A stretch of DNA of 64,000 nt. Source: Cyanobacteria bacterium auto_48_18 (lineage in GTDB: Bacteria; Cyanobacteriota; Vampirovibrionia; Obscuribacterales; Obscuribacteraceae). Positions 4,866 through 12,653 of this stretch are shown here, one piece after another. The notes below the pieces were generated by a model, which had not been told where the DNA came from, made no database searches, and saw only the letters and a program-made list of their open reading frames with translations. The translations under genes were made by a program, and so were the position numbers. The stretch is from positions 36,651 to 100,650 of the forward strand of contig JAVHQC010000005.1 in the NCBI GenBank assembly GCA_036170915.1, written 5' to 3'. Within the stretch, counting starts at the first letter, position 1, and each line of letters opens with the position of its first letter.

Positions 4866-5426
4866 ATGTCGCTCGCTCATGCAATTCTTGGTTTTCTTCG
4901 TCGTGGCTCACAAACGGGATACACTCTGAAAAATGAGCATTTCGATAAAAGTGTGGCCTATTTCTGGCCGGGCGATCAGACGCAGATTTATAAAACTCTC
5001 GACAAACTCGTAGAGCAGGGATTTGCCACAAGTGAAGTTGAAATTCAGCTAGATAGGCCAAATCGCAAAGTCTATTCAATTACAAAAAGCGGCAAAGTCG
5101 AATTAGAAAAGTGGCTCAGTGCGCCTGTTGAGCCTCCCGTATACCGCGATCCATTGCTCGTGCAAGTATTCTTTAGCGATTTCGTTGACTCAGAATCTAT
5201 ATTAGAAGTGTTGGCCAGTACTCGAGAAAAACATGCTGCGATATTGCAGCAACTACAAGCTATCAAAATTCCCAAATCTGGAAAGTGTTCAAATCGCGAA
5301 GAATTGTCCGGCCGTCTCACTTTAGACTTGGGTTTGAAGTCTAAGCAAGCTTATATAGACTGGATTGACGAGGCTACAGAAGCAATCAAGTCGTTAGACA
5401 AGCGGCAGAACCGACGGTCAAAGTAA
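4866..5426 (+). CDS. PadR family transcriptional regulator
   Basis: MSLAHAILGFL...GY.L...QIYKTL.KL...RKVYSIT..G signature with an AphA-like C-terminal domain. Confidence 0.92.
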   Translation: MSLAHAILGFLRRGSQTGYTLKNEHFDKSVAYFWPGDQTQIYKTLDKLVEQGFATSEVEIQLDRPNRKVYSITKSGKVELEKWLSAPVEPPVYRDPLLVQVFFSDFVDSESILEVLASTREKHAAILQQLQAIKIPKSGKCSNREELSGRLTLDLGLKSKQAYIDWIDEATEAIKSLDKRQNRRSK

Positions 5427-5500
5427 TTCAAGTACTTGATGTAGCCTGGCAAATGTGAAAACTTTGCAATTTTGGTGTGGCCGGCTATTGTATTTTGCAG

Positions 5501-5520
5501 ATATAGGAGTAGTCTTATAT
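5501..5520. promoter_or_regulatory. Putative PadR operator (ATATAGGA-GTAG-TCTTATAT)
   Basis: Near-perfect inverted repeat 38 nt upstream of the oxygenase ATG; matches the site upstream of padR. Confidence 0.65.
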
Positions 5521-5558
5521 CGGTTGGATCGGTTTTAACGTCAGTGAGGATTCAAAAG

Positions 5559-6932
5559 ATGGCTACCAGTGAAAAAGTTCTAGAACAAAGTTCGACAAAT
5601 GCGTTTCTACGAGCCAATTTTGCTCCGGTAACAGACGAAAATGTCATCTTTGATTTACCTGTCAGCGGTTCAATTCCGCTCGAGTTAAACGGGCGTTTCC
5701 TTAGAGTAGGGCCAAATCCCGTTGGCAAAGTCAGTGCTAAAAACTATCACTGGTTCGTGGGCGCAGGCATGGTGCATGGTCTTCGATTAACTCAAGGCAA
5801 AGCTGAGTGGTATCGCAATAATTATGTGCTCAGTAACAACGTCGCAAAAGAACTTAAAAGAAAGCCGTTGCCCAAATTGCGCAACAGGCGTGGTGGCAGT
5901 GTCAATACAAATGTTTTAAGTATCGCAGGCGATCTTTACGCCCTAGTTGAGGCTGGAGATTTGCCCATCAGGCTAGACAAAGATTTGCAGAGTGTCGCCA
6001 ATAGTGATTTTGGCGGCACCCTTGAGGGCGGATTCAGCGCTCATCCTCGTCGCGATCCTTCAACGGGCGATCTGCATGTAATTACGTACGAACCGGGCAA
6101 GAGATCTGTAGATTATCTAGTGGTGGACGCTGCTGGTCGCTCTCGCAAAGCTGCTGAGATTGCAGCGCCTCATATGCCCATGATTCACGACACCGCTATC
6201 ACGCCGTCGTATCTGGTGGTGCTCGATTTGCCCTTCACTTTCGACCTGGTTACTGCACTTGGCGGCAGTCTGCCGTATGCCTTTAATTCCAAGAGACAGG
6301 GTCGCATAGGGCTTTTGCCACGCTCGGGTGATGTCGGCGCTACAAAGTGGTTTGAAACACCACTTTGCTACGTTTATCACATTCTCAATGCCTACGAAGA
6401 CGCAGATAAGGTTGTGGTTGATGTAGTGAAAAATTCAACTAGTTTTGATGCCTCGATTTTGAAGCGCTCAATTCAGGCACCGATGCTGGTGCGCTGGATT
6501 CTCGACTTAGCCAGCGGCAGATTAGTCGAAACACAGCTCAGTGAGCGAGCCGTAGAGTTTCCACGTTTGAACGATAAGCTAGTAGGGCAAAACTATCGCT
6601 ATGGCTATACCGCCGAGTTTACCGCTAACCTTGAGTTTGGTAGCGCGTTCAAGCATGATTTGCTCAAGTCTGAAACCATCGAACACAACTACGGAGACGG
6701 TCGAGTGACAATGGAACCTGTGTTCGTGGCTAAAGAGAATGCTTCAGCCGAAGATGAAGGCTGGCTGTTGTCCTACGTTTTTGACAAAAACACAAATAAA
6801 TCAGATGTGGTCATTCTTGATGCTCAGAATTTTGACGGCGATCCTGTGGCAACCATCCATTTACCCGTGCGCGTGCCTTTTGGTTTTCACGGTAACTGGG
6901 TTAAGGATAGTGAATTGAAGGCAAGTCACTAA
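5559..6932 (+). CDS. Carotenoid oxygenase / lignostilbene dioxygenase (RPE65) family protein
   Basis: NFAPV, GRFLRVGPNP, HWF.G.GMVH; four Fe-ligand His (SAHP, MIHD, VYHI, GFHG). Start set to ATG 5559 after a GAGG RBS. Confidence 0.92.
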   Translation: MATSEKVLEQSSTNAFLRANFAPVTDENVIFDLPVSGSIPLELNGRFLRVGPNPVGKVSAKNYHWFVGAGMVHGLRLTQGKAEWYRNNYVLSNNVAKELKRKPLPKLRNRRGGSVNTNVLSIAGDLYALVEAGDLPIRLDKDLQSVANSDFGGTLEGGFSAHPRRDPSTGDLHVITYEPGKRSVDYLVVDAAGRSRKAAEIAAPHMPMIHDTAITPSYLVVLDLPFTFDLVTALGGSLPYAFNSKRQGRIGLLPRSGDVGATKWFETPLCYVYHILNAYEDADKVVVDVVKNSTSFDASILKRSIQAPMLVRWILDLASGRLVETQLSERAVEFPRLNDKLVGQNYRYGYTAEFTANLEFGSAFKHDLLKSETIEHNYGDGRVTMEPVFVAKENASAEDEGWLLSYVFDKNTNKSDVVILDAQNFDGDPVATIHLPVRVPFGFHGNWVKDSELKASH

Positions 6933-6971
6933 TCATTTCGCAACACAATTGCCATATTTTCAAAATAATCG

Positions 6972-7000
6972 TTGACAAAGATGCGAGCCGCAGTTAACCT
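6972..7000 (+). promoter_or_regulatory. Sigma70-type promoter of the arg leader/operon
   Basis: TTGACA (6972-6977), 17 bp spacer, TAACCT (6995-7000). Confidence 0.7.
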
Positions 7001-7021
7001 TCAATTCGTCACTGCTTTGGA

Positions 7022-7108
7022 ATGCAATCTGCAATGCCAGTTATCACCACTGCCGCCAACCGCCGCCGCCGCGAGTTCTCACCGAACCCGGGGCATCGAC
7101 TTGCATAG
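7022..7108 (+). CDS. Arginine operon leader peptide, 28 aa (MQSAMPVITTAANRRRREFSPNPGHRLA); alternative ATG at 7034
   Basis: Four tandem CGC codons at 7061-7072, located between the promoter and a terminator upstream of argF. Confidence 0.8.
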   Translation: MQSAMPVITTAANRRRREFSPNPGHRLA

Positions 7109-7134
7109 CTAAAAAGCAAAACAAGATTTGAAGC

Positions 7135-7165
7135 AACCCTGGGTCAAGCGCCCGGGGTTTTTTTT
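7135..7165 (+). terminator. Intrinsic terminator (attenuator) upstream of argF
   Basis: AACCCTGGG-TCAAGCG-CCCGGGGTT stem with a T8 tract at 7158-7165. The 5' arm can pair alternatively with ACCCGGGG at 7086-7093. Confidence 0.85.
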
Positions 7166-7201
7166 CGTATTAAATTCACGACCATTCAATTAGGAACAAC
7201 G

Positions 7202-8257
7202 ATGACTCAAATCAATATAGCAATTAAAGAAGACTCCCCTCCAGGCGGCATCTCTCAGTTTAAAACCGCTAAACCGCAGCGTATGGCTAACCCTGAAGGT
7301 GTTTCACCGCTAGCATTTGTTCTTGAAGAACACAGCATGAGGGGTAAAGATATCATCGGCATCGAGCAGCTCAATGCCACCGAAATCAATTTGATTCTTG
7401 AAGTTGCCGCTAAATTGAAGGCGCACAAATTTGACGCCACCCAGACGCTTTTTGCTAAAGGTCAAACTTTGACAATGCTTTTTGAAAAGCCTTCACTGCG
7501 CACAAGAGTGACATTCGAAGCTGGTATGACGCAGCTCGGCGGTCACGCCATCAACATCGAAACCAAACTTGGTGAGCGCGAAACAATTTCTGATGTGGGC
7601 AAAAATCTAGAGCGCTGGGTAGACGGCATCATGGCTCGTACTTTCGAGCATTCCACCATTGAGGCTCTGGCTGCCAATGCCAACGTTCCTGTAATCAATG
7701 GCCTATCTGACAAAGAGCATCCGTGTCAGGCGCTGGCCGACTTCCAAACTCTTATTGAACACAAAGCTAAAGCGGGCAGTTTAAAAGGAATAAAATTGGC
7801 ATATATCGGCGATTCCAATAATGTTTCCAACTCACTTTTGCTCACGGCGGCTACTCTCGGCGTCGACTTCAGCATCGGTTGTCCTCACAAGTATGAGCCC
7901 CAGGCCTCAATCTGGATGAAAGCTCTGGAGCTGGCCAAGATATCCGGTGCCACAATTACTTTATCGAACGACCCGCATGTGGCGGTGGCCGGTGCCGACG
8001 CAGTTTACACAGACGTGTGGACATCAATGGGTCAAGAGGCCGAAGCAAAAGAACGAGAAAAAATATTTGCACCCTATCAGCTCAACGCCGCTCTTATGAA
8101 AAGTGCCAAAGCTGATGCCATCATCATGCACTGCTTACCTGCTCATCGCGGTTTAGAAATTACAGACGAAGTGATAGACAGCCCAAATTCAGTGGTTTTC
8201 GACCAGGCCGAGAATAGATTACACGCGCAAAAAGCAATACTTGCTCTAGTGCTTTAA
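7202..8257 (+). CDS. argF: Ornithine carbamoyltransferase
   Basis: FEKPSLRT, HPCQ, DVWTSMGQE, HCLP and QAENR motifs. The start may be further downstream (about 45 aa N-terminal extension). Confidence 0.95.
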   Translation: MTQINIAIKEDSPPGGISQFKTAKPQRMANPEGVSPLAFVLEEHSMRGKDIIGIEQLNATEINLILEVAAKLKAHKFDATQTLFAKGQTLTMLFEKPSLRTRVTFEAGMTQLGGHAINIETKLGERETISDVGKNLERWVDGIMARTFEHSTIEALAANANVPVINGLSDKEHPCQALADFQTLIEHKAKAGSLKGIKLAYIGDSNNVSNSLLLTAATLGVDFSIGCPHKYEPQASIWMKALELAKISGATITLSNDPHVAVAGADAVYTDVWTSMGQEAEAKEREKIFAPYQLNAALMKSAKADAIIMHCLPAHRGLEITDEVIDSPNSVVFDQAENRLHAQKAILALVL

Positions 8258-8268
8258 GGAGATAACAA

Positions 8269-9489
8269 ATGAAAAAAATATTGCTGGCCTACTCTGGTGG
8301 GCTCGACACCTCATGCATTTTGACCTGGTTAAAAGAGAAATATAATGTGCCAATCGTGGCTTATTGCGCCAATGTCGGCCAGGACGAAGATTTTGATGCC
8401 GTACACGCTAAGGCATTGATAACCGGTGCTGAAAAATGCATCATTGACGATTTGAAGAACGAGTTTGTTAAAGACTTCATCTTCCCATCTATTCAAGCTA
8501 ATGCTGTTTACGAAGCCGTCTATTTGCTTGGCACCTCGCTCGCCCGGCCCTGCATCGCTCAAGGCATGGTTGAAGCTGCGCTGCGTGAAGGATGCGATTA
8601 CATCGCCCATGGTGCCACTGGTAAAGGTAATGACCAGGTGCGTTTTGAATTAGCAGTCAAATCGCTGGCCCCACAACTTAGCGTCATTGCTCCCTGGCGT
8701 GAATGGGAGTATCAAAGCCGCACAGATCTCTTTGCTTATGCTGAAAAGCACGGCATCCCTCTGCCGATCACGAAAGAGAAACCTTATTCCATGGACGCTA
8801 ATTTGATGCACATTAGCTATGAGGGTGGCATTTTAGAAAATCCGTGGCAGGAAGCGCCGGAAAACATTTACTTGTGGACCAAGAATCCTGAAGAGGCACC
8901 AGACAAAGCTCAGTTTGTTGAAATTGAATTTGAGCAAGGCGTGCCGGTTGCCATTGACGGTGTGAAAATGGGCCCTGTGGCATTGATGGAAAAGGCCAAC
9001 GAAATTGCCGCCGCCCATGGTGTCGGTCGCATTGACTTGGTGGAGAATCGTTATATTGGTATCAAGTCTAGAGGCGTGTACGAAACTCCCGGCGTCACCA
9101 TTCTGATGCAGGCTCACCAGGCCGTTGAATCGCTTACTTTAGACAAAGAAGTAGCGCATCTAAAGCAGTCGTTGGTCAGCAAAATTGCCGAGTTAACATA
9201 TAACGGATTCTGGTTTGCCCCTGAAACACAACTGCTGCACAATTTCATCAAAGATTCGCAAACTTGTGTCAGTGGCGTGGCCAAGATCAAGCTCTATAAG
9301 GGCAGCTCTATGGTGGTGGCAAGAAAATCTGAACTCTCACTTTACAGTGAAAAAATGACAAGCTTCGAAAATATGTCGAGCTTCAACCCCGCTGATTCAG
9401 GCGGTTTCATCAATATTAACGGTCTTAGACTCTCTGCCTGGAGCCAGAAAAATGCAAGTATTAAGAAAAGCGTTCACGCAACAGCTTGA
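8269..9489 (+). CDS. argG: Argininosuccinate synthase
   Basis: LAYSGGLDTS, HGATGKGNDQVRFE, KSRGVYETPG. Confidence 0.97.
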   Translation: MKKILLAYSGGLDTSCILTWLKEKYNVPIVAYCANVGQDEDFDAVHAKALITGAEKCIIDDLKNEFVKDFIFPSIQANAVYEAVYLLGTSLARPCIAQGMVEAALREGCDYIAHGATGKGNDQVRFELAVKSLAPQLSVIAPWREWEYQSRTDLFAYAEKHGIPLPITKEKPYSMDANLMHISYEGGILENPWQEAPENIYLWTKNPEEAPDKAQFVEIEFEQGVPVAIDGVKMGPVALMEKANEIAAAHGVGRIDLVENRYIGIKSRGVYETPGVTILMQAHQAVESLTLDKEVAHLKQSLVSKIAELTYNGFWFAPETQLLHNFIKDSQTCVSGVAKIKLYKGSSMVVARKSELSLYSEKMTSFENMSSFNPADSGGFININGLRLSAWSQKNASIKKSVHATA

Positions 9490-10810
9490 TCAGTCGGTCA
9501 CTGCTTTTATCAATTCGGTTGATGCCGATCAGGCTTTAATCGAGGTTGATATTCAGGGCAGTATCGCCCACGCCACCATGCTTTGTCAGCAGGGCCTGCT
9601 TACCCAGGCCCAGGCGGCGAATATTGTCAGCGGTTTGCAGGCCATTTTGAGCGAGTACCACGCTGGTGCCTTTGTGCTCAACCCTGTGTTTGAAGACGTG
9701 CATATGAATGTAGAGAAACGTCTCGAACAACTCATTGGTCAAGACGCTCTGCGGCTTCACACCGCGCGCAGCAGAAATGATCAAGTCGCACTTGACTTGC
9801 GGCTTTTTGTAATCGGGCAAATCGCTCAGCACAAAGCGCAAATTGCAGCACTGAAAGCAGCGATCAACAAGTCTGCCACAGAGAATATTGACGCTGTCAT
9901 GCCGGGCTATACACACCTGCAACGGGCACAGCCTGTGCTTTTCGCCCACGCTATGCATGCCTTCATAGAAATGCTCGCTAGAGATTACGGTCGCTTTGAA
10001 GATCTCGAAAAACGGGTGGCGATTTCACCACTAGGGGCTGGTGCCCAGGCTGGTACCGGGCTTCCAATCGATCCGCATTTGAGCGCCAAATTGCTTGGTA
10101 TGCAGGGCTGTTTCAATAATTCGATTGATGCCGTTAGCGATCGTGATTTTGCCGCTGAGTATTTATTTGCAGCGTCAATGTGCTCGGTGCACTTAAGTCA
10201 GATGGCCGAAACATTTGTGATTTGGGCCTCGCGCGAGTTTGGCTTTGTCACTTTTAGTGACGCTGTGACCACGGCATCGAGTTTGATGCCGCAAAAGAAA
10301 AATCCTGATCCCGTTGAAATTGTGCGCGGAAAAACTGGTGGCATGATTGGTGCGTTAGTAAATATACTTTCCACCTTAAAGGGTCTGCCGCTTGGTTATA
10401 ATCGCGATTTGCAAGAGACCAAAGAGCCGGTTATTAAGGTCAGCCACGAACTGAGTGGCAGCCTAAATGTCATGGCAATTGCCATTGCCAGCATGACCGT
10501 CAACTGCGAGACAACGCTGAAAGCCGCTTCTGACCCAGATATGATTACTACCGACCTGGTGGAATACCTTGTAAATAAGTCGGTGCCATTTCGACGAGCC
10601 CACGAAGAAGTGTCGGCTCTCGTGGTTTTCGCACGGGAGAAAGCTGTCTCTCTTTCGGCTTTAACACTGGCCGAGCTGCAGAATTTCAGCAAAGAATATG
10701 AAACTGACGCTCTCGCTCTGTTCGATCCCGTCGTTTCGGTGACCGCCAAAACATCTCACGGTAGTACCGGCGCAGCCAAAGTCAAAGAGGTGGCGCATTC
10801 GTTTAAATGA
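9452..10810 (+). CDS. argH: Argininosuccinate lyase
   Basis: EDVHM, HTARSRNDQ, MPGYTHLQRAQP, SSLMPQKKNPD, YNRDLQE. Confidence 0.96.
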   Translation: MQVLRKAFTQQLDQSVTAFINSVDADQALIEVDIQGSIAHATMLCQQGLLTQAQAANIVSGLQAILSEYHAGAFVLNPVFEDVHMNVEKRLEQLIGQDALRLHTARSRNDQVALDLRLFVIGQIAQHKAQIAALKAAINKSATENIDAVMPGYTHLQRAQPVLFAHAMHAFIEMLARDYGRFEDLEKRVAISPLGAGAQAGTGLPIDPHLSAKLLGMQGCFNNSIDAVSDRDFAAEYLFAASMCSVHLSQMAETFVIWASREFGFVTFSDAVTTASSLMPQKKNPDPVEIVRGKTGGMIGALVNILSTLKGLPLGYNRDLQETKEPVIKVSHELSGSLNVMAIAIASMTVNCETTLKAASDPDMITTDLVEYLVNKSVPFRRAHEEVSALVVFAREKAVSLSALTLAELQNFSKEYETDALALFDPVVSVTAKTSHGSTGAAKVKEVAHSFK

Positions 10811-10845
10811 TTGAGAAAACTTGACTGCAAACAGGGTTATATAGA

Positions 10846-10863
10846 TTAGAATGGTCGTTCTAA
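10846..10863. promoter_or_regulatory. Putative TetR operator (TTAGAATG-GT-CGTTCTAA)
   Basis: Inverted repeat just downstream of a TTGACT -35-like hexamer (10821-10826) and upstream of the TetR gene. Confidence 0.55.
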
Positions 10864-10891
10864 CCTATTTATGCAGTAACAGGCTTTCAAA

Positions 10892-11476
10892 ATGGCGTCA
10901 ACAAAACAGAAAGCATTGCCTAAAGACAAACGCCAGATGATTGTTGAAACTATGCTCGATCTCGTTGTTGAGCGTGGTTTTCACAACTCACCAATGTCTC
11001 TTCTGGCGAAGAGAGCTGGCGCTAGCGCCGGCGTTATTTACCATTATTTTGCCAGCAAAGAAGATGTTATTCACGCTGTTTATTTGCACGTCAAATCTGT
11101 AAAAGTGAAATTTATTCTTGATGGGCAACCGACTAGCAATTCAATAGAAGAGTTGTTTTTACTTTCTTTTGTCAAAGTCTATAATTTCTATCGCACGCAT
11201 TTGCGCGAAACACTTTTTCTCGACCTGTATGAAAATTCTACTTTTTGTTCTACTGCGTCCGACCACGCAGCACAGGCAGATCCTGCTCTACAGGCATTCA
11301 TGAACGCCTTTCGCCCTAAGAAAGATGGCGGCCTGTTGAAAGATCTTCCTCCTGAGGCGATCCACGAGTTTTCGTTTGGATTAGCCAGGCGTCTTGCCAA
11401 AAATGAAATGGCTTTACCACCAGCTTCCTTGAAGAAAATCGCCAAAGCGTCCTGGCAAGCAATTGCAGCCCAGTAA
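10892..11476 (+). CDS. TetR/AcrR family transcriptional regulator
   Basis: N-terminal HTH: GFHNSPMSLLAKRAGASAGVIYHYFASKEDVI. Confidence 0.92.
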   Translation: MASTKQKALPKDKRQMIVETMLDLVVERGFHNSPMSLLAKRAGASAGVIYHYFASKEDVIHAVYLHVKSVKVKFILDGQPTSNSIEELFLLSFVKVYNFYRTHLRETLFLDLYENSTFCSTASDHAAQADPALQAFMNAFRPKKDGGLLKDLPPEAIHEFSFGLARRLAKNEMALPPASLKKIAKASWQAIAAQ

Positions 11477-11494
11477 CTTTTAATTTACCGGCAC

Positions 11495-11514
11495 TAGAAT
11501 GAACGTTCGGTCTA
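11495..11514. promoter_or_regulatory. Putative TetR operator (TAGAATGAAC-GTTCGGTCTA)
   Basis: 20-bp imperfect palindrome upstream of the aldo/keto reductase; shares the TAGAATG half-site with 10846-10863. Confidence 0.65.
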
Positions 11515-11588
11515 TGATTCAATATTAGGCAAGCGCTGGCAATTAGAGATTTCTGATTGGGCCGCTTAAGTAGTTGAGGAAATCACAT

Positions 11589-12653
11589 ATGGAATATAGA
11601 ACTCTCGGCAATACCGGCTTACTGGTCTCGACCCTTTGCTTTGGTGCTATGACTTTTGACGGCGGTAAAGGCATTTTCAAAATGCTGGGCGGCTCTAATC
11701 AGGCTCAGGCGGATGAACTCGTCAAGGCTTGCATAGCGGAGGGTGTCAATTTCTTTGATACCGCCGATATCTATTCTGAAGGCGGCAGCGAGGAGATGCT
11801 TGGTCAATCCTTCAAGAATCTTGGTATAGCCCGAAAAGATGTTGTCATCGCCACAAAGTGCTTTGGCCGCATGGGTGACGGCCGCAACGATGTCGGTGCA
11901 TCGCGCGGGCATATCATGGACGCTGTAGACGCCAGCCTGCGCCGCTTGCAAACCGATTACATTGACCTTTATCAGATTCACGGCAGCGACAGCGTTACTC
12001 CCATTGAAGAGACCTTGCGCGCTTTAGATACTCTCGTTAATTCCGGCAAGGTTCGCTATATAGGATGCTCAAATTGGCAAGCGTGGAAATTGGCTAAAGC
12101 ATTGGGAATTTCTGAATACAAAAATTTGGCTCGCTTTGATAGTTTGCAGGCCTATTATTCACTCGCCGGTCGCGATTTAGAGCGCGAACTGGTGCCTCTT
12201 CTGGAAGCTGAAAAAACAGGACTGCTTGTATGGAGCCCACTTGCAGGTGGATTGCTTTCAGGCAAATTTAGTCGCGAGAATCAAAAACCTGAGAATTCGC
12301 GCCGCTCTGAATTTGATTTTCCACTTGTTGATAAAGAGCGCACATGGAATATTCTCGAAGCGATCGCACCTATTGCAGAAGCGCATGGCTGTAGCGCAGC
12401 GCAGATTTCTTTAGCATGGCTTTTGTCGAAATCAGTTGTTACTTCAGTGATTATTGGTGCTAGAAATATGCAACAGTTGAAAGACAATTTGAGTTCGGTG
12501 CACGTTAAATTGAGCGACAGTGAAATTGCAATTCTCGATGAAGTAAGCCAATTGCCGCCGGAATATCCGGGCTGGATGGTGCCCTTTCAAAACATGGATC
12601 GCCTTGCGCCCGTCGACCACTTTGAAGCCATGAAGGAACTGGTGAAAAAATAG
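11589..12653 (+). CDS. Aldo/keto reductase
   Basis: GVNFFDTADIY, ATK, DYIDLYQIH, GKVRYIGCSN, WSPLAGGLL. ATG follows a GAGG RBS. Confidence 0.95.
   Translation: MEYRTLGNTGLLVSTLCFGAMTFDGGKGIFKMLGGSNQAQADELVKACIAEGVNFFDTADIYSEGGSEEMLGQSFKNLGIARKDVVIATKCFGRMGDGRNDVGASRGHIMDAVDASLRRLQTDYIDLYQIHGSDSVTPIEETLRALDTLVNSGKVRYIGCSNWQAWKLAKALGISEYKNLARFDSLQAYYSLAGRDLERELVPLLEAEKTGLLVWSPLAGGLLSGKFSRENQKPENSRRSEFDFPLVDKERTWNILEAIAPIAEAHGCSAAQISLAWLLSKSVVTSVIIGARNMQQLKDNLSSVHVKLSDSEIAILDEVSQLPPEYPGWMVPFQNMDRLAPVDHFEAMKELVKK

What the first reader, a model, noticed from the sequence alone, without database searches (positions are those of the whole stretch)
6972..7165. Classical leader-peptide attenuator controlling arginine biosynthesis (argF-argG-argH)
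Seen: promoter TTGACA-17-TAACCT, then a 28-codon ORF (7022-7108) with four consecutive Arg codons (7061-7072), then a GC-rich terminator with T8 (7135-7165), 36 nt before argF. Segment ACCCGGGG (7086-7093), 13 nt 3' of the Arg run, is complementary to the terminator 5' arm CCCTGGGT (7137-7144), so the two structures exclude each other. Known: this is the trp/his/thr/leu/ilv/phe architecture, whereas bacterial arg operons are normally described as ArgR-controlled. I do not know of a described tandem-Arg classical attenuator for them. Inference: stalling at RRRR when Arg-tRNA is scarce frees the antiterminator and allows readthrough.
Basis: partly seen in the sequence, partly recalled or inferred. 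Interest (0 to 1): 0.88.

Follow-up and report, generated by a model that had tools for sequence, protein, structure and literature searches.

The report
Arginine-sensing leader attenuator of arg operons
A tiny upstream gene with four arginine codons and competing RNA hairpins most likely switches on this bacterium's arginine-synthesis genes when arginine runs short; related switches sit before most arginine operons of its family, a textbook mechanism that I found no paper describing for arginine synthesis.

Summary
The element has all sequence hallmarks of a classical ribosome-mediated attenuator before argF-argG-argH: conserved promoter, in-frame Arg run, protector 1:2, antiterminator 2:3, terminator 3:4. 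A covariance model found 98 places in 104 family genomes (Ca. Obscuribacterales, non-photosynthetic Cyanobacteriota); the best 70 all lie directly before argF, argC, argJ or argG, up to three per genome. The terminator shows compensatory changes, the antiterminator weaker ones. In modelling, 2:3 forms with a ribosome on the Arg codons and is lost 2-3 codons later (76 of 76). No ArgR was found in this genome; 49 of 52 ArgR-less, argG-bearing relatives carry a leader, while ArgR genomes mostly use operator-like repeats (exclusion incomplete). Translation and arginine response are untested. Ten literature searches found no such attenuator for arginine biosynthesis. This scan noted similar arginine leaders before on other DNA (94 notes, other taxa, unchecked). 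Verdict: new variant of a known kind.

The parts
6972..7000 (+). sigma70-type promoter, TTGACA-17 nt-TAACCT; transcription start inferred near 7006-7007
   Evidence: sequence; hexamers kept while the spacer varies before argF, argC, argJ and argG leaders of relatives; not listed by the consensus scan
7034..7108 (+). leader ORF, 24 aa, MPVITTAANRRRREFSPNPGHRLA; in-frame ATG 7022 is a non-conserved alternative start
   Evidence: start in the Arg frame in 71 of 76 leaders against 15 and 7 in the other frames
7061..7072 (+). four tandem Arg codons (CGC), the proposed sensor; 3' part is also region 1
   Evidence: third positions vary CGA/CGT/CGC and runs are interrupted in frame (RRTRR, RRSRR, RRNRR) in relatives
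7068..7094 (+). protector / possible pause hairpin 1:2 (-13.7 kcal/mol)
   Evidence: fold: P 0.92-0.97 while the transcript ends at 7096-7140; helices 83-96% paired in 37 aligned sequences (fitted alignment)
7086..7093 (+). region 2, antiterminator 5' strand (pairs with 7137-7144; duplex -16.1 kcal/mol)
   Evidence: unfitted pair count 85.7% paired, 14 cells with change on both sides
7135..7165 (+). intrinsic terminator 3:4 (stem 7135-7159; region 3 = 7137-7144, region 4 = 7150-7157) with T8 at 7158-7165
   Evidence: 7 of 9 pairs change on both sides across 37 sequences
7202..8257 (+). argF, ornithine carbamoyltransferase
   Evidence: NCBIfam TIGR00658 and PRK00779 over cut-off
8269..9489 (+). 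argG, argininosuccinate synthase
   Evidence: TIGR00032 over cut-off
9452..10810 (+). argH, argininosuccinate lyase
   Evidence: TIGR00838 over cut-off

Best explanation
A classical ribosome-mediated transcription attenuator that senses charged tRNA-Arg. RNA polymerase starts near 7006 and makes hairpin 1:2 (possible pause; inferred). A ribosome starts at AUG 7034 (inferred). With arginine plentiful it runs through the four CGC codons, covers region 2 and stops at 7106-7108; region 3 pairs with region 4 and transcription ends in the U tract near 7160-7165. With arginine scarce it waits on the Arg codons, covering region 1 but not region 2; 2:3 forms, 3:4 cannot form in time, and argF-argG-argH is transcribed. 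Shown here: the parts, their conservation, covariation, exclusive link to arg genes and the modelled geometry. Inferred: translation, pausing, timing and the arginine response. Paralogous copies in front of argC, argJ, argF and argG make it the family's main arginine control where ArgR is missing.
For: Best 70 of 98 model hits in 104 family genomes all lie directly before an arg gene, 58 of them not training sequences; 79 of 98 overall. Start-to-run distance varies (9, 10, 12, 14, 15, 19, 20 codons in orthologues) and always keeps frame; one leader has a compensated -1/+1 shift (G006). ATG in the Arg frame in 59 of 76 leaders, 2 and 1 in other frames. Terminator covariation 7 of 9 pairs; antiterminator, to which the alignment was not fitted, has 14 two-sided changes, 1 of 500 shuffles as high, and beats all slid registers. 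P(2:3) above 0.5 with the A site on the first Arg codon in 76 of 76 and below 0.1 four codons past the last Arg in 70 of 76; in this genome 0.97 on Arg codons, 0 from codon 15 or 16 with footprint-only masks. 292 of 293 control codons are CGA/CGC/CGT against 69% genome-wide. No ArgR here; leader in 49 of 52 ArgR-less genomes with argG, the other 3 contigs start inside the operon. Few terminators lie close to stop codons, as expected for coupled transcription and translation (criterion from passages of PMC7858274).
Against: No expression data. Folding the whole leader gives the terminator (P 0.93-1.0) at every ribosome position: the switch appears only on the unfinished transcript, so it depends on timing. 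Without a ribosome, 2:3 beats 1:2 at equilibrium in 39 of 76 leaders and ties here (0.51 vs 0.47). With the shortest footprint mask, 2:3 returns (0.88) when the ribosome sits on the stop codon. The ribosome-binding site is weak (GGA, 12 nt before ATG 7034). Antiterminator covariation is modest (pairs with two-sided change 4 of 8, 27 of 500 shuffles as high; the -1 slide scores close) and kin are not independent. The model was built on CGN runs, so codon and motif counts are partly ascertained, and CGC is also favoured by 1:2 pairing. Some ArgR genomes also carry leaders. The genome is 86% complete.
Confidence: 0.85

Rival explanations
1. An RNA switch driven by a ligand or RNA-binding protein; the CGN repeats are kept only to pair with region 2 and the ORF is incidental.
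For: The last Arg codons do pair in 1:2 and the last codon is CGC in 63 of 76; weak ribosome-binding site; the three-strand layout would fit any antitermination switch.
Against: Frame kept across seven lengths; starts strongly favour the Arg frame; unpaired first Arg codons vary only synonymously (CGA 54, CGC 17, CGT 5); runs are broken by whole non-Arg codons; no Rfam family at gathering score in six loci or near it here; little conserved sequence outside the three strands.
Confidence: 0.05
2. A nascent-peptide sensor: the peptide stalls the ribosome in response to a small molecule (ornithine, citrulline or arginine), as SpeFL or the fungal arginine attenuator peptide do, rather than by lack of charged tRNA.
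For: Ser/Thr/Asn-rich stretch before the run and an E/D-F after it recur; Arg-bearing uORF sensors are known (PMC6386406 abstract).
Against: Residues and length before the run vary widely (9-28 codons); a stall here turns the genes on, so an arginine-induced stall has the wrong sign, and an ornithine-induced stall has the wrong sign for the copies before argC and argJ, which make ornithine (pathway knowledge).
Confidence: 0.05
3. A general translation-speed or polybasic-stall sensor that sets a basal readthrough or responds to broad starvation or antibiotics, not to arginine in particular.
For: Any stall from about codon 8 to 14 gives 2:3 in the model; runs of basic residues slow ribosomes (recalled; search listing PMC3595205).
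Against: Only Arg, never Lys, is used; 79 of 98 hits and all best 70 precede arg genes and none of those read precedes another amino-acid or resistance gene.
Confidence: 0.04
4. A chance short ORF beside the terminator of the upstream dioxygenase gene.
For: A same-strand gene ends at 6932; about 0.4-1.4% of terminators here have an Arg-run ORF by chance.
Against: The upstream gene differs among relatives while the leader stays with the arg gene; a conserved promoter lies upstream of the terminator and none was listed between it and argF; copies stand before four different arg genes.
Confidence: 0.01

Closest known systems
Classical leader-peptide attenuators (trpL, hisL, thrL, leuL, ilv, pheL of enterobacteria; trp, leuS of Actinobacteria, PMC1262725; ilvB uORF of Corynebacterium, PMC11109978; cysS uORF of Rhodobacterales, PMC8632094)
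   Same: Promoter, short ORF with tandem codons for the pathway's product, 1:2, 2:3, 3:4 hairpins, U tract, regions 2 and 4 as direct repeats.
   Different: Senses arginine; precedes arg biosynthesis genes, which E. coli controls by ArgR (PMC6345581 passages) and for which PMC1262725 saw no RNA element in Actinobacteria and cites T-boxes elsewhere; up to three paralogous copies per genome; non-photosynthetic Cyanobacteriota; the ORF usually runs through region 2 and stops 3' of it.
Salmonella orf34 / speFL (PMC6386406, abstract)
   Same: uORF with consecutive Arg codons; ribosome pausing at low arginine changes RNA folding.
   Different: Controls ornithine decarboxylase through Rho, RBS release and RNase G decay, not an intrinsic terminator; conserved peptide. 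No Rho found here.
Staphylococcus aureus rbfL (PMC13009471, passages)
   Same: Arginine limitation sensed by ribosome pausing in a leader peptide.
   Different: Rare AGA/AGG codons, RBS occlusion, opposite sign, controls a biofilm regulator; here common CGH codons and termination.
E. coli argL (bioRxiv 10.1101/511675, passages)
   Same: Small ORF at the 5' end of argF.
   Different: Overlaps the argF start out of frame and lowers its expression; the passages mention no Arg run or terminator; here the ORF ends 93 nt before argF with a terminator between.
ArgR repressor with ARG boxes; arginine T-box
   Same: Same target genes.
   Different: DNA-level repressor or large tRNA-binding RNA; neither found at this locus. 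ArgR with operator-like repeats occurs in 22 of 104 family genomes.

Membership tests
classical ribosome-mediated attenuator | short 5' ORF with tandem codons for the end product of the downstream pathway | tested here: met
classical ribosome-mediated attenuator | intrinsic terminator (3:4 plus U tract) between promoter and first gene | tested here: met
   (sequence, folding, covariation; no 3'-end data)
classical ribosome-mediated attenuator | antiterminator 2:3 that excludes the terminator | tested here: met
   covariation modest
classical ribosome-mediated attenuator | protector 1:2 that wins over 2:3 when no ribosome stalls | tested here: inconclusive
   forms first and dominates up to 7140, but 2:3 wins at equilibrium in 39 of 76
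classical ribosome-mediated attenuator | spacing such that a ribosome on the control codons frees region 2 and one further on covers it | tested here: met
   masked folding; depends on assumed footprint
classical ribosome-mediated attenuator | leader is translated | not testable with these tools
   only frame and start conservation
classical ribosome-mediated attenuator | readthrough rises when the cognate amino acid is limiting and needs the control codons | not testable with these tools
   needs reporter or transcript data
classical ribosome-mediated attenuator | transcription coupled to translation | tested here: inconclusive
   proxy only: median stop-to-stem distance 34.5 nt, 16 of 112 at 12 nt or less, 11 of these inside the ORF
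T-box / known riboswitch | match to an Rfam family at gathering score | tested here: not met
ArgR regulon | argR gene in the genome and ARG boxes at the promoter | tested here: not met
   PF01316 and PF02863 not found in G000 (86% complete) or in 14 same-genus genomes; no operator-like repeat in 6801-7210
arrest-peptide sensors (SpeFL, fungal AAP, TnaC) | conserved peptide sequence and length before the stall site | tested here: not met
   9-28 variable codons before the run; no NCBIfam match

The most novel reading that the evidence does not exclude
Arginine biosynthesis in Vampirovibrionia is run by an attenuator regulon: an old Arg-leader module, present in two orders, has been copied in front of each arg transcription unit and stands in for ArgR, and a second, terminator-less Arg-leader type works beside ArgR by some other route in a lineage where Rho was not found. 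Together with the scan's unchecked notes from other phyla, this would make arginine a widespread, overlooked member of the classical attenuation set.
Probability: 0.55. Interest if true: 0.76.

Novelty: new variant of a known kind. Interest (0 to 1): 0.63.

Why it matters
Arginine synthesis is the standard example of repressor (ArgR) control and is missing from the usual list of pathways run by leader-peptide attenuation. A complete Arg attenuator with dozens of natural variants shows how bacteria without ArgR can regulate the pathway, gives a short (about 200 nt) cassette that can be tested at once in a laboratory strain or used as a sensor of charged tRNA-Arg, argues that transcription and translation are coupled in this uncultured sister group of photosynthetic cyanobacteria, and offers a within-family case of repressor and attenuator replacing or overlapping each other.

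Tried and rejected
Whole-leader equilibrium folding with ribosome masks: terminator always wins, uninformative for a timed switch; replaced by unfinished-transcript folding. ATG 7022 as start: rejected. Strict exclusion of ArgR and leader: rejected. The idea that the genus has only argF-G-H: rejected; argC, argJ, argB were not found in this assembly but relatives have argC-J-B-D with their own leaders. Second model hit in G000 (C14): a terminator after a 5S-rRNA-like gene, noise. Four of five class-level hits outside the family are plain terminators. Scan of G000 for other amino-acid leaders before terminators: none recognised from the printed list (downstream genes not annotated). ArgG tree: basal fork open, each label needs 2 changes, order of events not resolved. 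RNA runs: no RNA holder listed. 16S tail not found in the assembly, so no anti-SD energy. Plasmid search: only distant ArgG, no use. Rfam: nothing near gathering score. One paper on codon sensitivity was not held. MAFFT alignments put some stems out of register, so pair counts were made on the model alignment.

Full report
Observation. The three genes are argF, argG and argH by NCBIfam cut-offs. The terminator is the first site listed by the scan of 5500-12500; the promoter is not listed, as its -10 box matches 3 of 6. The bare pattern is uncommon but not unique: 4 of 1110 terminator-like sites in the genome have a short ORF with at least 4 tandem Arg and a downstream gene, 15 with at least 3. 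The case therefore rests on comparison.

Organism. The closest named ArgG relatives are mostly titled Ca. Obscuribacter, Obscuribacterales or Melainabacteria, i.e. non-photosynthetic Cyanobacteriota (class name Vampirovibrionia is recalled); two titles from other phyla (L164, L187) look like mislabelled bins. The genome is 86% complete.

Conservation. ArgF loci from 30 best matches among 61 genomes were read upstream. All 13 same-genus argF loci and six genomes of other genera carry the Arg run, region 2 and terminator directly before argF, though the gene further upstream changes. ATG 7022 is out of frame in 9 of 12 same-genus loci with a whole 5' end; the homologue of ATG 7034 is in frame in all 12, so the leader is most likely 24 aa. 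The distance from that start to the run takes seven values (9 to 20 codons) in these orthologues and always keeps frame; G006 has a compensated -1/+1 shift after the run.

Family search. A covariance model from 12 leaders gave 98 places in 59 of 104 family genomes. I read 95 of them. The best 70 (E at most 5e-4; 12 are training sequences) all lie directly before an arg gene. In all, 79 do (argF 37, argC 25, argJ 13, argG 4; 52 genomes), one is cut by a contig end, 15 are unrelated terminators, 3 were not fetched. Genomes often hold two or three paralogous copies, each with its own promoter; G122 has copies before argC, argJ and argF in one cluster. Among 151 genomes of the class, five hits fell outside the family; one, G212 in another order, is a real leader before argJ, four are noise. 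Around ArgG relatives, the model hit 20 of 28 family-like loci, including two titled Ca. Obscuribacter phosphatis (L173, L174), and 0 of 39 loci from other phyla (3 kb flanks).

Coding signal. In 76 non-redundant leaders (3 of 79 dropped: no terminator call or no promoter in reach) a start codon stands in the Arg frame in 71 (ATG 59), against 15 (ATG 2) and 7 (ATG 1) in the other frames; the five misses are leaders where my script took a wrong promoter, and one search shows in-frame ATGs for them. Runs are often broken by whole codons (RRTRR, RRSRR, RRNRR). 292 of 293 control codons are CGA, CGC or CGT, against 69% in long ORFs of this genome; these are common codons read by tRNA-Arg(ACG), of which the genome has two. 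That this isoacceptor is the starvation-sensitive one in E. coli is recalled, not checked. The model favours CGN, so the count is partly ascertained.

RNA structure. Here 1:2 is -13.7, 3:4 is -16.3 and the 2:3 duplex -16.1 kcal/mol; 4 of 2000 shuffles pair as well with region 3. On a model alignment of 37 hits (one is a spurious minus-strand row) the fitted 1:2 and 3:4 pairs are 89.9% kept, and 7 of 9 terminator pairs change on both sides. The 2:3 helix, not used in fitting, is 85.7% paired with 14 two-sided changes (1 of 500 shuffles as high); other measures are weaker (27 and 60 of 500), and a -1 slide scores close. One position changes in all three strands together (C-G-C to U-A-U, e.g. G033). 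Folding the finished leader always gives the terminator. On the transcript ending before region 4, P(2:3) exceeds 0.5 with the A site on the first Arg codon in 76 of 76, is under 0.1 four codons after the last Arg in 70 of 76 and at the stop in 76 of 76 (there everything 5' of the ribosome was masked, which forces the last figure). With footprint-only masks in this genome it is 0.97 on the Arg codons and falls to 0 by codon 15 or 16; at the stop it is 0 for two masks and 0.88 for the shortest. Without a ribosome 1:2 dominates until 7140, then ties with 2:3, and 2:3 wins in 39 of 76. The switch is thus a timed one, as for known attenuators, and the uninduced state is the least certain step.

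ArgR. Neither ArgR domain was found in this genome or in 14 same-genus genomes; Rho was not found here either. ArgR is in 22 of 104 family genomes, directly before argG in 20, with tandem operator-like repeats before argR in the six examined and none at this promoter (the name ARG box is my reading). Of 52 genomes with argG and no ArgR, 49 have a leader (46 by the genome search, three by local search and eye); in the other three the contig starts inside the operon. Of the 22 ArgR genomes the model found a leader in 3. In the 13 whose arg regions I read in part, 4 have a terminator-type leader before argJ, 3 have a terminator-less Arg-run ORF, 6 showed none. The exclusion is a trend, kin are not independent, and an ArgG tree leaves the order of events open.

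Mechanism. Best reading: a ribosome starting at 7034 reports charged tRNA-Arg; fast passage covers region 2 and allows termination near 7160-7165; a stall on the Arg codons frees region 2, 2:3 forms and argF-G-H is read (0.85). Parts, conservation and modelled geometry are shown; translation, pausing and arginine response are inferred. Stop-to-stem distances here (median 34.5 nt) do not show the short spacing that passages of PMC7858274 describe for uncoupled B. subtilis. Rivals are a ligand- or protein-driven RNA switch, an arrest-peptide sensor, a general speed sensor and chance; each is weighed in its field.

Literature. Ten full-text searches of the held library listed no terminator-antiterminator attenuator for arginine biosynthesis. 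Seen: passages of PMC13009471 (rbfL), bioRxiv 10.1101/511675 (argL), PMC6345581, PMC1262725, PMC2965389 (no occurrence of arginine in the main text; supplements not opened), PMC8632094 (passages; one supplement file without arg terms), PMC11109978 (passages; its supplement could not be read and lists further uORF candidates that may bear on novelty), PMC7858274; abstract and outline of PMC6386406. Recalled only: the fungal arginine attenuator peptide, ornithine sensing by SpeFL, and comparative attenuation surveys in subscription journals, which the library lacks, so absence from print is not established. No Rfam or NCBIfam match.

Earlier scan notes. A word search returned 94 notes in at least 89 genomes on Arg leaders before arg operons; the eight shown include Bacteroidota, SAR86 and archaea. 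None resembles this DNA or names this lineage. I did not test them; they are not evidence here, but they say the idea is not unique to this window.

Verdict. Real, well supported by comparison, untested by experiment: a new variant of the classical attenuator, with arginine as the signal and several copies per genome. Interest 0.63.

Noticed in passing
L227 and L228 (before argG), L037 (before argF): Three ArgR-bearing genomes have a different Arg-run ORF type (RRRR...MRRLRA, stop) about 230-270 nt before the gene, with no evident intrinsic terminator; how it would act is unexplained.
   Followed up: partly
L225 2239-2311, minus strand: A tRNA-Arg(ACG) gene lies inside the arg operon between argB and argF in G088, the tRNA that reads the leader codons.
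   Followed up: partly
window about 6935-6945: Motif ATTTCGCAAC about 30-40 nt upstream of the -35 box is kept before argF/argG leaders in several genera; could be a binding site for another regulator.
   Followed up: no
window 7202-7340: ArgF has an N-terminal extension of about 45 residues, variable at the start but with a conserved QRMA-x-P motif across the family.
   Followed up: no
L229, between argR and argC: Another short frame with an Arg run (RRRRRER) in an ArgR genome, no clear start or terminator checked.
   Followed up: no
L079 / L015 (G032) and two same-genus relatives: The leader ATG lies only 7 nt after the -10 box, so these leaders may be leaderless, and the ORF stops before region 2.
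   Followed up: no
whole genome G000: argC, argJ and argB were not found in the assembly although same-genus genomes have argC-J-B-D; probably an assembly gap. Rho was not found.
   Followed up: partly
window 4866-6932: PadR-like regulator and carotenoid-cleavage-dioxygenase-like gene upstream on the same strand (below curated cut-offs); not linked to the arg leader in all relatives.
   Followed up: no
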